From positions 124,093-188,092 of the forward strand of contig JBNLCO010000010.1 in assembly GCA_050303855.1 (NCBI GenBank): a stretch of 64,000 nt of DNA. The letters are read 5' to 3'. This DNA comes from Candidatus Pacearchaeota archaeon. GTDB lineage: Archaea > Nanobdellota > Nanobdellia > Pacearchaeales > GW2011-AR1. The position numbers were made by a program, and so were the translations under genes. This document shows positions 51,444-53,379 of the stretch, in pieces. Every line of letters starts with the position of its first letter. The first letter of the stretch is position 1. Under the pieces are notes generated by a model, which had not been told where the DNA came from, did no database searches, and worked only from the letters and a program-made list of their open reading frames with translations.

Positions 51444-51531
51444 TGCGCGGACCGGGGATCGAACCCGGATCAACTGGTCTCTTCAGACAACCTGTGGAAG
51501 CCAGTTATTCTAACCATTAAACTATCCACGC
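51444..51531 (-). tRNA. tRNA-Gly(UCC) with a 16-nt intron at the canonical 37/38 position
   Basis: Manual fold. Acceptor GCGTGGA/TCCGCGC plus discriminator A73; D arm GTTT-AATGGTTA-GAAT; anticodon stem ACTGG/CCAGT; loop CTTCCA|intron CAGGTTGTCTGAAGAG|A; T arm CCGGG-TTCGATC-CCCGG. No encoded CCA. Confidence 0.85.
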
Positions 51532-51891
51532 CTATTTATCTATATTGTGGGTGTGTTTTAAAGGTTTTTGCTTTTCCCAATGTAATTTTCTATGGCAGTT
51601 GGCACAAAGCACTTTGCATTTTTTAATCTCATGAAGTATCCTCTTAATTGAATATCCTTCGGAAACCATCTTGGCAACTTCCATTTCTTTATCATCCCTT
51701 TGGTGATGAAAATCTATTGTGGCGGGATGGTTTTCTTTGCAAATTGTGCAACCCAAACTATCCTTATAGTTGCGAAACCAGGATTTTATTTCTTTTTTCC
51801 TTCTTGCCACGTGCTTTATCTCTGATTCCTTATTTTTGCTGTACCAATTTTTCCGATACTCCAATCTTTTTTTACGGTCTTTGAAGGGCAT
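51532..51891 (-). CDS. HNH endonuclease-domain protein (119 aa)
   Basis: Contains ...GCTICKENHPATIDFHHQRDD...VLCANCHRKLH... (Cys-box plus HNH signature). Its stop codon directly abuts the tRNA-Gly 5' end. Confidence 0.7.
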   Translation of the reverse strand: MPFKDRKKRLEYRKNWYSKNKESEIKHVARRKKEIKSWFRNYKDSLGCTICKENHPATIDFHHQRDDKEMEVAKMVSEGYSIKRILHEIKKCKVLCANCHRKLHWEKQKPLKHTHNIDK

Positions 51892-51944: not shown

Positions 51945-52020
51945 ACGCCCGAGACAGGATTTGAACCTGCGACCTATTCCTTAGGAGGGAATCGCTCTAA
52001 TCCAGGCTGAGCTACCCGGG
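51945..52020 (-). tRNA. tRNA-Arg(CCU)
   Basis: Manual fold: GCCCGGG-TA-GCTC-AGCCTGGATTA-GAGC-G-ATTCC-CTCCTAA-GGAAT-AGGTC-GCAGG-TTCAAAT-CCTGT-CTCGGGC-G. Confidence 0.88.
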
Positions 52021-52104
52021 CAATTGTTCTCAGAACAAGAAAAGGAGATTTAAATGTTATGCAAGGAACTAAATCTTTAATAATAAGGCTTTAGATGCGA
52101 AATA

Positions 52105-52920
52105 ATGGTTACAAAGAACATCATATCTGACTATGAAATTGAAAAAGGTAGGAAAGTTCTTGAAAACCACCTTGTTTACCCTTTAACAAAAGAAGGAGCA
52201 TTTGAATCAGGATTGTGGTGCATAAGCAGTCAGGCAACACCTTGGGAAATGGCCTCCAACATAATCTATAAACTTAGGGAAAATTCTTATCCAGGAGACC
52301 CTCATGCAAAAAAGAAGATTTCTCGGATGGAAACTCTTAAGGATGTAGGAGAAGTTAACAAGTCTGCTAAAGAAGCGGGATGGAGGTTTGCAAAGGGAAA
52401 TAGATTCAACGATTTTATTAATTATTTCTCAAAAGAGGAAATATCTTCAAAGGACTGGCACTATGAAGTTAGAGATGCCAATAATGAATATAGAAAACAA
52501 ATTGTGAAGGATGTTGGGTGGCTAGGCTTGAAGACTTTCTCATTTTGGAACATCTGTTTGGGAGGAAAAGATTTTCTTGCATTAGATGTATGGATTCTAA
52601 AAGATCTTAAGAAATTAGGTTTAGATATAAAAGAGGAATATGTTGTAGCTCAGAGTAGGAATGTGGGAAAACAAAAAGTAAGGAAGACCCCTAGGGAAAA
52701 AGAATATTGTAAGGTAGAAAACGAAGCAAGAGAATTATTTTCTAAAGATAAAAGATTCCTACAAGAAGATGGAAAGGTCGACCTTGCTTTAGTAGATAGT
52801 GTTTTATGGTGGAGAGGTGCAAACAGAGGTACTTTGTATCAGCAGTCTCTTTTTGAAGAAGAAGTACTTTTAGAAATGCCTTATCAAAATATGCGGAGAA
52901 CAGGATTCGAACCTGCGTAG
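52105..52920 (+). CDS. HhH-GPD-superfamily DNA glycosylase candidate (Ogg2-type 8-oxoguanine glycosylase/AP-lyase-like)
   Basis: The pattern parallels archaeal Ogg as I recall it: ...GLWCISSQATPWE..., ...VGWLGLKTFSFWNICLGGKDFLALDVWILKDL... (HhH with Lys, then Asp), ...LALVDSVLWW... The last 29 nt overlap tRNA-Leu on the opposite strand. Confidence 0.45.
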   Translation: MVTKNIISDYEIEKGRKVLENHLVYPLTKEGAFESGLWCISSQATPWEMASNIIYKLRENSYPGDPHAKKKISRMETLKDVGEVNKSAKEAGWRFAKGNRFNDFINYFSKEEISSKDWHYEVRDANNEYRKQIVKDVGWLGLKTFSFWNICLGGKDFLALDVWILKDLKKLGLDIKEEYVVAQSRNVGKQKVRKTPREKEYCKVENEARELFSKDKRFLQEDGKVDLALVDSVLWWRGANRGTLYQQSLFEEEVLLEMPYQNMRRTGFEPA

Positions 52921-52975
52921 GCACTAAGCCATAAGAGCCTTAATCTTACCCATTTGACCACTCTGGCATCTCCGC
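52892..52975 (-). tRNA. type-II tRNA-Leu with an apparent anticodon AAG
   Basis: Manual fold: GCGGAGA-TG-CCA-GAGTGGTCAAA-TGG-G-TAAGA-TTAAGGC-TCTTA-(variable arm TGGCTTAGTGCCTAC)-GCAGG-TTCGAAT-CCTGT-TCTCCGC-A73. Confidence 0.75.
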
Positions 52976-53044
52976 ATAAGCACAGAAAAACAAACTTCAG
53001 ACCCTATAAAAAAGTTTGGAATGTGGTCTGTAAAGACATAAATG

Positions 53045-53263: not shown

Positions 53264-53379
53264 TAAGACGGCCATAGTAGCGATGGTTCCACCTGGTCTC
53301 TTTCCGAACCCAGAAGTTAAGCATCCTACGTTGTTACCGGTACTGTCCTGCAAGATGGGAAAGTAACAAGCTGTCCTAC
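53264..53379 (+). rRNA. rrf: 5S rRNA (ends approximate to within about 4 nt)
   Basis: GACGGCCATAGTAGCGATGGTTCCACCTGGTCTCTTTCCGAACCCAGAAGTTAAGCATCC...GGGAAAGTAACAAGCTGTCC. It has the conserved CCGAAC..GAAGTTAAGC loop region, and the terminal helix GACGGC/GCTGTC pairs. Confidence 0.88.

What the first reader, a model, noticed from the sequence alone, without database searches (positions are those of the whole stretch)
52892..52975. tRNA-Leu with an apparent A34 (anticodon AAG), unexpected for an archaeon
The only perfect 5-bp anticodon stem I can draw is TAAGA/TCTTA. It encloses the 7-nt loop TTAAGGC, giving U33, anticodon A34-A35-G36 and G37. The long variable arm and A73 identify it as Leu.

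To my knowledge, A34-containing tRNAs, which are normally deaminated to inosine, occur in eukaryotes. In bacteria they are essentially restricted to tRNA-Arg(ACG) plus rare exceptions. Archaea are described as lacking both A34 tRNAs and wobble deaminases, and they use GAG for CUY codons. This could be a genuine decoding oddity, a recent G-to-A mutation, a horizontally acquired tRNA, or a sequencing error.
Basis: partly seen in the sequence, partly recalled or inferred. Interest (0 to 1): 0.5.

Follow-up and report, generated by a model that had tools for sequence, protein, structure and literature searches.

The report
Clade-wide A34 leucine tRNA in archaea
The window really encodes a leucine tRNA with anticodon AAG, and this supposedly "forbidden" archaeal tRNA is a conserved feature of a whole group of tiny DPANN archaea (Pacearchaeota/Woesearchaeota-labelled genomes), so it raises a testable question: do some archaea make wobble inosine after all?

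Summary
Window 52892-52975 (minus strand) is a class II tRNA-Leu whose 7-nt anticodon loop UUAAGGC gives A34-A35-G36.

It is not an error, a recent mutation or an imported tRNA. tRNA-Leu(AAG) occurs in 49 of 80 related species-representative DPANN genomes and in 58 metagenome contigs, and none of the 80 related loci carries a GAG copy. The cloverleaf covaries: 18 of 23 pairs show compensatory change, including all 5 anticodon-stem pairs. U33-A34-A35-G36-G37 is invariant. A conserved TATA-type promoter motif lies upstream.

A more distant relative carries tRNA-Leu(GAG) at the same Leu-Arg-Gly-SecF-SecD locus. A34 therefore arose from G34 and was then retained across the clade. A tRNA-Leu(UAG) partner seems to coexist with it, and CAG is rare.

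Whether A34 is deaminated to inosine could not be tested. No deaminase lies in the DNA I could reach, and codon usage does not discriminate. I lean towards I34 (about 55%) over unmodified A34 (about 40%).

The literature held here says archaea lack A34 tRNAs, apart from sporadic single-species cases such as Ferroplasma acidarmanus. A clade-wide case looks unreported.

The parts
52892..52975 (-). tRNA-Leu(AAG) gene, 84 nt, class II, discriminator A73, no encoded CCA
   Evidence: ARAGORN; Rfam RF00005 at 54.4 bits; covariation in 50 orthologues; 0 of 50 encode CCA
52939..52941 (-). Anticodon A34 (52941), A35 (52940), G36 (52939)
   Evidence: Sequence; Rfam alignment; invariant columns 35-37 of alignment A1
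52932..52948 (-). Anticodon arm: stem UAAGA/UCUUA and loop UUAAGGC (U32 U33 A34 A35 G36 G37 C38)
   Evidence: All five stem pairs covary across species, which fixes the loop register.
53002..53019 (-). Promoter-like element CCAAAC-TTTTTTATA-GGG; the TATA-like run ends 30 nt upstream of the mature 5' end
   Evidence: Sequence. The related motif TTTATAAA(A/C)CTTTTTATAT lies at the same distance in about 30 of 50 orthologous genes. Function is inferred, not shown.
52880..52891 (-). 3' trailer UAUUUUGAUAAG with an oligo-U run, terminator-like
   Evidence: Sequence. T-rich trailers are common in the orthologues. Inferred.
51946..52021 (-). tRNA-Arg(CCU), member of the conserved Gly-Arg-Leu tRNA cluster next to secF/secD
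   Evidence: the same cluster is seen in most related loci
51444..51531 (-). tRNA-Gly(UCC) with a 16-nt intron at 37/38, first member of the same cluster
   Evidence: relatives have Gly(UCC) here, mostly without an intron

Best explanation
This is a genuine, expressed leucine tRNA with a genomically encoded A34. It descends from the ordinary archaeal tRNA-Leu(GAG) by a G34-to-A34 transition at the same locus. Selection has kept it throughout an AT-rich clade of DPANN archaea whose genomes are labelled Pacearchaeota, Woesearchaeota or Nanoarchaeota. It replaces GAG as the decoder of CUY codons. CUU is the commonest CUN codon, at 23 per 1000 codons. A separate tRNA-Leu(UAG) covers CUA and CUG, and CAG is mostly absent. 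The switch costs nothing in charging, because LeuRS reads the long variable arm and A73 rather than the anticodon (established knowledge). Shown here: the gene, its anticodon, its conservation, its covariation, its promoter motif, the orthologous GAG state in a relative and the absence of GAG in the clade's sampled loci. Inferred and not shown: I consider it most likely (about 55%) that A34 is deaminated to inosine by a TadA-like enzyme, probably acquired from bacteria. That would give IAG, which reads CUU, CUC and CUA, as in eukaryotes and streptococci. The reasons are three. Leu(AAG) is the known second natural substrate of bacterial TadA. Only the Leu box has switched, while Val, Ser and Gly tRNAs on similar contigs keep G34. 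Unmodified A34 tRNAs almost never persist elsewhere.
For: Gene and anticodon.

Clade-wide presence: 50 Leu(AAG), 3 Leu(UAG) and 0 Leu(GAG) in the window plus 80 species-representative loci. Of 42 sequences that cover both leucine-tRNA loci, 37 carry AAG. AAG occurs in every major branch of a DUF655+S13+S11 tree of 78 species.

Metagenomes: a pattern with N at position 34 gave A 58, T 53, G 7 and C 4. 57 of the 58 A34 sequences are unique.

Native origin: the tRNA body matches the GAG and UAG tRNAs of the group. L181 has Leu(GAG) in the same Leu-Arg(CCU)-Gly(UCC)-SecF-SecD cluster.

Expression signals: a conserved TATA-type motif upstream.

Partner tRNA: UAG copies lie mostly at other loci, near Cys-GCA, Arg-UCU and Val-GAC. 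They come from contigs with the same codon usage as the A34 contigs.

Other boxes keep G34: Val-GAC three times, Ser-GGA and Gly-GCC.

CUC is not avoided: CUC/(CUC+CUU) is 0.17, against 0.15 for Val and 0.18 for Ser. The same holds in ribosomal-protein genes, with an odds ratio of 0.88.

Precedents: Streptococcus TadA deaminates tRNA-Leu(AAG) (PMC13249217). DPANN archaea have acquired the bacterial queuosine pathway, which also acts at position 34 (PMC8204110).
Against: No deaminase was found. There is no [HC][AS]E...PCxxC motif and no phmmer hit to E. coli or S. aureus TadA in the 1.9 Mb held locally. That DNA covers only a few genomic neighbourhoods, so the absence says little.

A database search with S. 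aureus TadA returned only staphylococcal proteins and cannot reach DPANN.

Reviews and a 2026 commentary state that no archaeal TadA or ADAT homologue and no archaeal I34 are known.

Codon usage fits unmodified A34 plus a four-way-reading U34 tRNA equally well.

A34 lineages are AT-richer than the G34 relatives. This is what a simple preference for an A:U pair would also predict.

No complete tRNA set of any one genome was available. The coexistence of AAG with UAG and the absence of GAG are therefore inferred from samples.
Confidence: 0.55

Rival explanations
1. The same genuine clade-wide tRNA, but A34 stays unmodified. It reads CUU by a Watson-Crick A:U pair, and other codons weakly. tRNA-Leu(UAG), with a permissive U34, reads the rest of the box. 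This matches the tRNA-Thr(AGU)/tRNA-Thr(UGU) pair of Mycoplasma capricolum. The G-to-A change was favoured or tolerated because CUU outnumbers CUC about 5:1 in these AT-rich, reduced genomes.
For: Archaea are reported to lack TadA and ADAT, and none was found here. A34 lineages are AT-richer than the G34 relatives: C/(C+U) in the Leu box is 0.17 against 0.35. A UAG partner occurs at about equal frequency, 53 against 58. At the same locus A34 has been replaced by U34 in a few species (L044, L056, L067, L082, L105, L109), which suggests the AAG tRNA is dispensable. Ferroplasma acidarmanus carries Leu-AAG in place of GAG (PMC6000648); no deaminase is known for it (my own knowledge). A34 tRNAs of four-codon boxes are better tolerated (bioRxiv 10.64898/2026.05.15.725136).
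Against: If AT pressure alone sufficed, other four-codon boxes with the same U bias should also switch. Val GUC/(GUC+GUU) is 0.15, yet Val-GAC, Ser-GGA and Gly-GCC are kept. CUC is used as freely as NNC codons of G34-read boxes, even in ribosomal-protein genes. All other archaeal ANN tRNAs on record are confined to single genomes, so unmodified A34 does not normally persist. Here, none of about 108 AT-rich lineages has reverted to G.
Confidence: 0.4
2. Sequencing or assembly error, or a very recent strain-specific G-to-A mutation in this one genome.
For: Single-genome ANN tRNAs do occur in archaeal databases.
Against: A34 is present in 49 other species representatives and in 57 distinct metagenome sequences from independent assemblies. 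Position 34 is invariant, while 18 of 23 stem pairs vary with compensation.
Confidence: 0.01
3. A tRNA-Leu(AAG) acquired horizontally from a bacterium or a eukaryote.
For: DPANN genomes carry many bacterial genes (PMC8204110). The anticodon arm CUGGA-UUAAGGC-UCCAG of some members resembles the human tRNA-Leu-AAG arm. That comparison is from my memory and was not tested.
Against: The D-arm, variable arm, T-arm and acceptor stem are those of the native GAG, UAG and CAA leucine tRNAs of the same lineages. The gene sits in a conserved archaeal tRNA cluster where a relative has GAG.
Confidence: 0.02
4. A non-functional tRNA pseudogene, or a mis-registered anticodon whose true anticodon differs.
For: The single-sequence MFE fold does not give the cloverleaf.
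Against: The covariance-model alignment and covariation across species fix the cloverleaf and the 7-nt loop. There is a conserved promoter motif. The GAG alternative is absent from all sampled loci of the clade.
Confidence: 0.02

Closest known systems
tRNA-Leu(AAG) of Ferroplasma acidarmanus fer1 (archaeon), reported as a species-specific G-to-A change of tRNA-Leu(GAG) (Front Microbiol 2018, PMC6000648)
   Same: An archaeal host, the same anticodon, the same inferred origin from GAG, and GAG absent from the genome.
   Different: The Ferroplasma case is confined to one genome among 167. Here the state is fixed across about 50 sampled species and is common in metagenomes, with covariation and a conserved promoter.
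Bacterial tRNA-Leu(AAG to IAG) of Lactobacillales (Streptococcus, Leuconostoc/Oenococcus), deaminated by TadA
   Same: The same anticodon in a prokaryote. The G34 isoacceptor is replaced. Leu is the only or main extra A34 box.
   Different: In these bacteria the deaminase and I34 are demonstrated, and tRNA-Arg(ACG) is the primary substrate. Here neither TadA, nor I34, nor tRNA-Arg(ACG) could be checked.
Eukaryotic cytosolic tRNA-Leu(IAG) with the ADAT2/ADAT3 deaminase
   Same: A34 is encoded, there is no GAG isoacceptor, a UAG partner exists, and G37 follows the anticodon.
   Different: Eukaryotes use I34 in up to eight boxes and a heterodimeric enzyme. Here only the Leu box is affected and the enzyme is unknown.
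Mycoplasma capricolum tRNA-Thr(AGU) with unmodified A34, paired with tRNA-Thr(UGU) (my own knowledge)
   Same: An AT-rich, reduced genome, an A34 plus U34 pair of tRNAs in one four-codon box, and no G34 or C34 isoacceptor.
   Different: A different amino acid and domain. The unmodified state is demonstrated there and is only a rival hypothesis here.
Canonical archaeal tRNA-Leu(GAG)
   Same: The same gene family, body and genomic positions: next to secF/secD, or 3' of the S13-S4-S11-rpoD operon.
   Different: Position 34 is G. In this sample it is retained only in GC-richer, more distant relatives.

Membership tests
tRNA (Rfam RF00005), class II tRNA-Leu | Cloverleaf matching the tRNA covariance model above the gathering score | tested here: met
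   54.4 bits against a gathering score of 29, E = 6e-9, full-length match; ARAGORN call
tRNA (Rfam RF00005), class II tRNA-Leu | Helices supported by compensatory changes in orthologues | tested here: met
   18 of 23 pairs have changes on both sides, 99.6% of cells are paired, and 0 of 500 shuffles reach this
tRNA (Rfam RF00005), class II tRNA-Leu | Long variable arm and discriminator A73 (Leu identity elements); 7-nt anticodon loop with U33 and a purine at 37 | tested here: met
   A 14-nt variable region with a covarying 3-bp stem; A84 (= A73), U33 and G37 are invariant
A34/I34 wobble-inosine tRNAs (TadA or ADAT substrates) | Genomically encoded A at position 34 in a four-codon box | tested here: met
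   A34 is invariant in 50 of 50 orthologues and in 58 metagenome copies
A34/I34 wobble-inosine tRNAs (TadA or ADAT substrates) | No G34 isoacceptor for the same box in the same genome | tested here: inconclusive
   0 GAG among 92 Leu tRNAs in the window plus 80 loci. GAG occurs only on GC-richer contigs from distant relatives. No complete genome could be inventoried.
A34/I34 wobble-inosine tRNAs (TadA or ADAT substrates) | A tRNA A34 deaminase (CDA fold, HAE...PCxxC) encoded in the genome | not testable with these tools
   None in the window, in its 15 kb of extra flanks, or in 200 loci, 1.9 Mb in all. These cover only a few neighbourhoods. The protein search cannot be directed at this taxon.
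A34/I34 wobble-inosine tRNAs (TadA or ADAT substrates) | Inosine present at position 34 of the mature tRNA | not testable with these tools
   Needs tRNA sequencing or mass spectrometry
Unmodified-A34 decoders (Mycoplasma tRNA-Thr(AGU) type) | An A34 tRNA paired with a U34 tRNA in the same box, with no G34 or C34, in an AT-rich reduced genome | tested here: inconclusive
   AAG and UAG occur at about 1:1 in metagenomes, with CAG at 4 of 122. GC is about 33%. Coexistence within one genome is inferred, not seen.
Unmodified-A34 decoders (Mycoplasma tRNA-Thr(AGU) type) | Avoidance of the C-ending codon relative to boxes read by G34 | tested here: not met
   CUC/(CUC+CUU) is 0.17 against 0.15 for Val and 0.18 for Ser. 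There is no extra depletion in ribosomal-protein genes. The test is weak, because translational selection may be feeble in these organisms.

The most novel reading that the evidence does not exclude
These DPANN archaea convert A34 of tRNA-Leu to inosine. That would be the first wobble-inosine (I34) decoding system in the domain Archaea. The deaminase would either have been captured from bacteria (TadA-like, which also predicts a tRNA-Arg(ACG)) or have evolved independently. It would overturn the current statement that I34 and its enzymes do not exist in archaea.
Probability: 0.5. Interest if true: 0.8.

Novelty: new member of a known kind. Interest (0 to 1): 0.62.

Why it matters
Reviews and 2024-2026 papers repeat that archaea have neither A34 tRNAs nor wobble inosine. 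This is used as the baseline for how decoding evolved, in particular for the idea that eukaryotes gained I34 only through bacterial TadA.

A large, environmentally widespread archaeal clade that has fixed tRNA-Leu(AAG) breaks that rule. It also makes the question directly testable.

If A34 is deaminated, archaea have I34 and there is an unrecognised archaeal wobble deaminase. If A34 is not deaminated, this is the largest natural group living stably with an unmodified A34 tRNA. That would bear on why ANN anticodons are otherwise almost universally avoided.

There is a practical point as well. Annotation pipelines and codon-adaptation models for DPANN genomes should not assume GNN-only decoding.

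Tried and rejected
(1) A different anticodon register, or UAA read from a 9-nt loop. Rejected by the covariance-model alignment and by covariation of all five stem pairs.

(2) Sequencing error or a recent mutation. Rejected by conservation in about 50 species and 57 distinct metagenome sequences.

(3) A horizontally acquired tRNA. Rejected by body identity with the native Leu tRNAs and by a syntenic GAG orthologue.

(4) Deaminase search. The CDA-motif regex and phmmer with E. coli and S. aureus TadA on all ORFs of the window and 200 loci found nothing. The search for homologous proteins with S. aureus TadA gave only staphylococci, so it could not reach DPANN. The supplements of three DPANN genomics papers had no tRNA adenosine deaminase (TadA), K11991 or COG0590 entry. 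A fourth listed only dCMP and dCTP deaminases. The archaeal "nucleoside deaminase" used as a TadA proxy in PMC6000648 looks to me like a yeast Fcy1-type cytosine deaminase (sequence read; the resemblance is from memory), so I did not use it as a query.

(5) Codon usage as a discriminator between I34 and A34. CUC is neither depleted nor enriched relative to other boxes, genome-wide or in ribosomal-protein genes, so the result is inconclusive.

(6) The viral-contig scan for the tRNA found nothing.

(7) Extending the contig past both window ends (L201, L202) gave one more tRNA, Ser-UGA, and no deaminase.

(8) Literature searches for A34 or I34 in DPANN, Pacearchaeota or Woesearchaeota found no description.

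Full report
**1. The observation**

The stretch 52892-52975 on the minus strand is a tRNA gene.
- ARAGORN reports tRNA-Leu with anticodon aag at 52891-52976.
- The Rfam tRNA model matches 52975-52892 end to end at 54.4 bits, E = 6e-9.
- Its alignment puts UAAGA/UCUUA as the anticodon stem around the loop UUAAGGC.
- That loop gives U33, A34-A35-G36 and G37. A34 is the complement of the plus-strand T at 52941.
- The 14-nt variable region and A73 make it a class II leucine tRNA.
- A thermodynamic fold of the single sequence does not reproduce the cloverleaf. This is common for tRNAs and is overridden by the comparative evidence below.

**2. The host**

The window has about 33% G+C. It encodes AglB/STT3, SecY, archaeal-type ribosomal proteins, DUF655, the S13-S4-S11-RpoD operon and SecD/SecF. 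It also holds a lone 5S rRNA and an intron-containing tRNA.

A search with the DUF655 protein brought in 80 loci from species-representative genomes. All are DPANN metagenome-assembled genomes labelled Pacearchaeota, Woesearchaeota or Nanoarchaeota, at 73-88% amino-acid identity.

**3. The A34 tRNA is a trait of the clade**

In the window plus these 80 loci, ARAGORN finds 50 tRNA-Leu(AAG), 39 Leu(CAA), 3 Leu(UAG) and no Leu(GAG).
- Forty-eight of the 50 AAG sequences are distinct.
- Of 42 sequences that cover both places where leucine tRNAs sit in this region, 37 carry AAG.
- On a neighbour-joining tree of DUF655+S13+S11 from 78 species, AAG occurs in every major branch. The UAG cases placed on the tree (L044, L056) are nested inside AAG-bearing groups.

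In an alignment of the 50 genes, the cloverleaf is paired in 99.6% of cells.
- 18 of 23 pairs show changes on both sides. This includes all five anticodon-stem pairs, for example CGAGA/UCUCG, UCUGA/UCAGA, AUUGG/CCAAU, CUGGA/UCCAG and ACAGG/CCUGU.
- No shuffle reaches these values, and sliding the 3' partners drops pairing to 36-51%.
- U33, A34, A35, G36 and G37 never vary.

The register of the loop, and therefore A34, is fixed by covariation and held by selection.

About 30 of the 50 genes carry the motif TTTATAAA(A/C)CTTTTTATAT, ending about 23 nt before the mature 5' end. The window has CCAAACTTTTTTATAGGG at the same place. No gene encodes CCA, and the trailers are T-rich. The gene therefore looks expressed, but this is inferred.

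**4. Metagenomes**

I scanned the metagenome collection with the clade's D-arm followed by YTNAGG, leaving position 34 free.
- Position 34 was A 58 times, T 53, G 7 and C 4.
- 57 of the 58 A34 sequences are unique.
- The A34 and U34 contigs have the same G+C (0.33-0.34) and the same leucine codon usage.
- The two tRNAs sit in different neighbourhoods. AAG lies with Gly(UCC) and Arg(CCU). UAG lies mostly near Cys(GCA), Arg(UCU) and Val(GAC).

The simplest reading is one AAG and one UAG gene per genome, usually with no CAG. This is an inference from samples, because no complete genome could be read.

Other tRNAs of four-codon boxes on these contigs keep G34: Val-GAC three times, Ser-GGA and Gly-GCC.

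**5. Origin**

Locus L181, whose SecD is 53% identical to the window's, has tRNA-Leu(GAG) in the same Leu-Arg(CCU)-Gly(UCC)-SecF-SecD arrangement. Six other GAG tRNAs lie directly 3' of the S13-S4-S11-rpoD operon in GC-richer, more distant relatives.

The AAG, GAG and UAG tRNAs share their D-arm, variable arm, T-arm and largely their acceptor stem.

A34 therefore arose from a native G34 gene. The tRNA was not imported.

Within the clade the two leucine-tRNA loci exchange anticodons between species. Most have AAG next to secF with CAA after rpoD. Some have the reverse. A few have UAG at either place. This is expected if leucyl-tRNA synthetase ignores the anticodon (established knowledge).

**6. 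Decoding and the open question**

All four CUN codons are used. In the window the counts are CUU 423, CUC 62, CUA 171 and CUG 47.
- In 302,649 codons from A34-bearing contigs, CUC/(CUC+CUU) is 0.17. That is the same as Val (0.15) and Ser (0.18).
- The G34 relatives are GC-richer, at 0.35.
- In S13, S4 and S11 genes of 81 genomes, CUC is no more depleted than in other boxes. The odds ratio is 0.88, against 0.93 for Val, 0.81 for Ser and 0.53 for Pro.

CUC is therefore not specifically avoided. This mildly favours an efficient reader of C, such as inosine. It is equally expected if translational selection is weak. Codon usage does not settle whether A34 is deaminated.

**7. Deaminase**

None could be found, and the search was not adequate.
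- No ORF in the window, in its flanks or in 200 loci (1.9 Mb in all) has a CDA-type zinc motif or matches E. coli or S. aureus TadA. This DNA samples only a few genomic neighbourhoods.
- The large protein search with S. aureus TadA lists only staphylococci.
- The tools offer no way to search one taxon's proteome.

**8. Literature**
- A 2021 review says all ANN anticodons are missing in archaea and that no A34 deaminase is known there (PMC8007984).
- A 2024 paper says genes for A34 tRNAs are absent in archaea (PMC11066159).
- A 2026 preprint counts 3 ANN among 10,517 archaeal tRNAs of 220 genomes.
- A 2026 commentary states that tRNA I34 does not exist in archaea and that no TadA or ADAT homologue was found (PMC13327615).
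- The closest precedent is a survey of 167 archaeal genomes that found isolated, species-specific ANN tRNAs. [quoted passage not shown]
- In bacteria, tRNA-Leu(AAG) is the second natural substrate of TadA (PMC13249217; PMC8266599 abstract).
- DPANN archaea have already been shown to acquire a bacterial position-34 modification pathway, queuosine (PMC8204110).
- I found no paper describing A34 tRNAs in DPANN.

**9. Verdict**

Error, recent mutation, import and pseudogene are excluded.

What remains open is chemistry. I put inosine-34 made by a so far unseen deaminase at about 55%. The arguments are these:
- only the Leu box switched;
- Leu(AAG) is the known TadA-compatible anticodon;
- unmodified A34 does not persist elsewhere in archaea;
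- no reversion to G was seen in about 108 lineages.

I put a stably unmodified A34 working with a permissive U34 partner at about 40%. The arguments are these:
- archaea are not known to have the enzyme;
- the switch tracks AT-richness;
- A34 is replaced by U34 in a few species;
- Mycoplasma and Ferroplasma provide parallels.

Either outcome contradicts a widely repeated generalisation, and either can be tested with existing MAGs and with tRNA sequencing.

Noticed in passing
L201:1365-3968 (Logan SRR36185838 contig, about 2-4.5 kb beyond the window's right end): An 867-aa protein of this DPANN archaeon with precomputed Pfam hits Vault_3 and MVP_shoulder. It is a major-vault-protein-like gene, which is unusual outside eukaryotes.
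   Followed up: no
window 51444-51531 (-): tRNA-Gly(UCC) with a 16-nt intron at the canonical 37/38 position (CAGGUUGUCUGAAGAG). ARAGORN could not name it. Most relatives have the same gene without an intron, and several carry introns of a different length.
   Followed up: partly
window 51532-51891 (-): A 119-aa ORF with an HNH-like motif (CTIC...HH...CANCH) lies between tRNA-Gly and tRNA-Arg. It is present in only 3 of 80 related loci and may be a mobile homing-endonuclease-like gene inside the tRNA cluster.
   Followed up: partly
window 52105-52920 (+): A 271-aa ORF with no Pfam hit and no homologue in any of the 80 related loci lies between tRNA-Arg and tRNA-Leu. Its last 29 nt overlap the 3' end of the tRNA-Leu gene on the opposite strand.
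   Followed up: partly
L001-L080 and L081-L200: the secF-linked tRNA cluster and the position 3' of rpoD: The two leucine-tRNA loci swap anticodons between species. Either locus can carry AAG or CAA, a few carry UAG, and distant relatives carry GAG. The tRNA bodies stay nearly identical, which suggests anticodon-arm remoulding or gene conversion among Leu isoacceptors.
   Followed up: partly
window 53002-53019 (-) and upstream of the tRNA-Leu(AAG) genes in about 30 loci: A strongly conserved double TATA-like motif, TTTATAAA(A/C)CTTTTTATAT, lies at a fixed distance upstream of the tRNA. It may be the clade's tRNA promoter consensus.
   Followed up: partly
window 53264-53379 (+): A stand-alone 5S rRNA gene (64.3 bits) lies 290 nt from the tRNA-Leu gene, and no 16S or 23S rRNA is in the window.
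   Followed up: no
L087, L096, L101, L107, L112, L119, L145, L147, L160, L163, L200: Many UAG, GAG and CAG leucine tRNAs of related metagenome contigs carry long insertions directly after position 37 or 38, presumably introns. The AAG genes are mostly uninterrupted.
   Followed up: no
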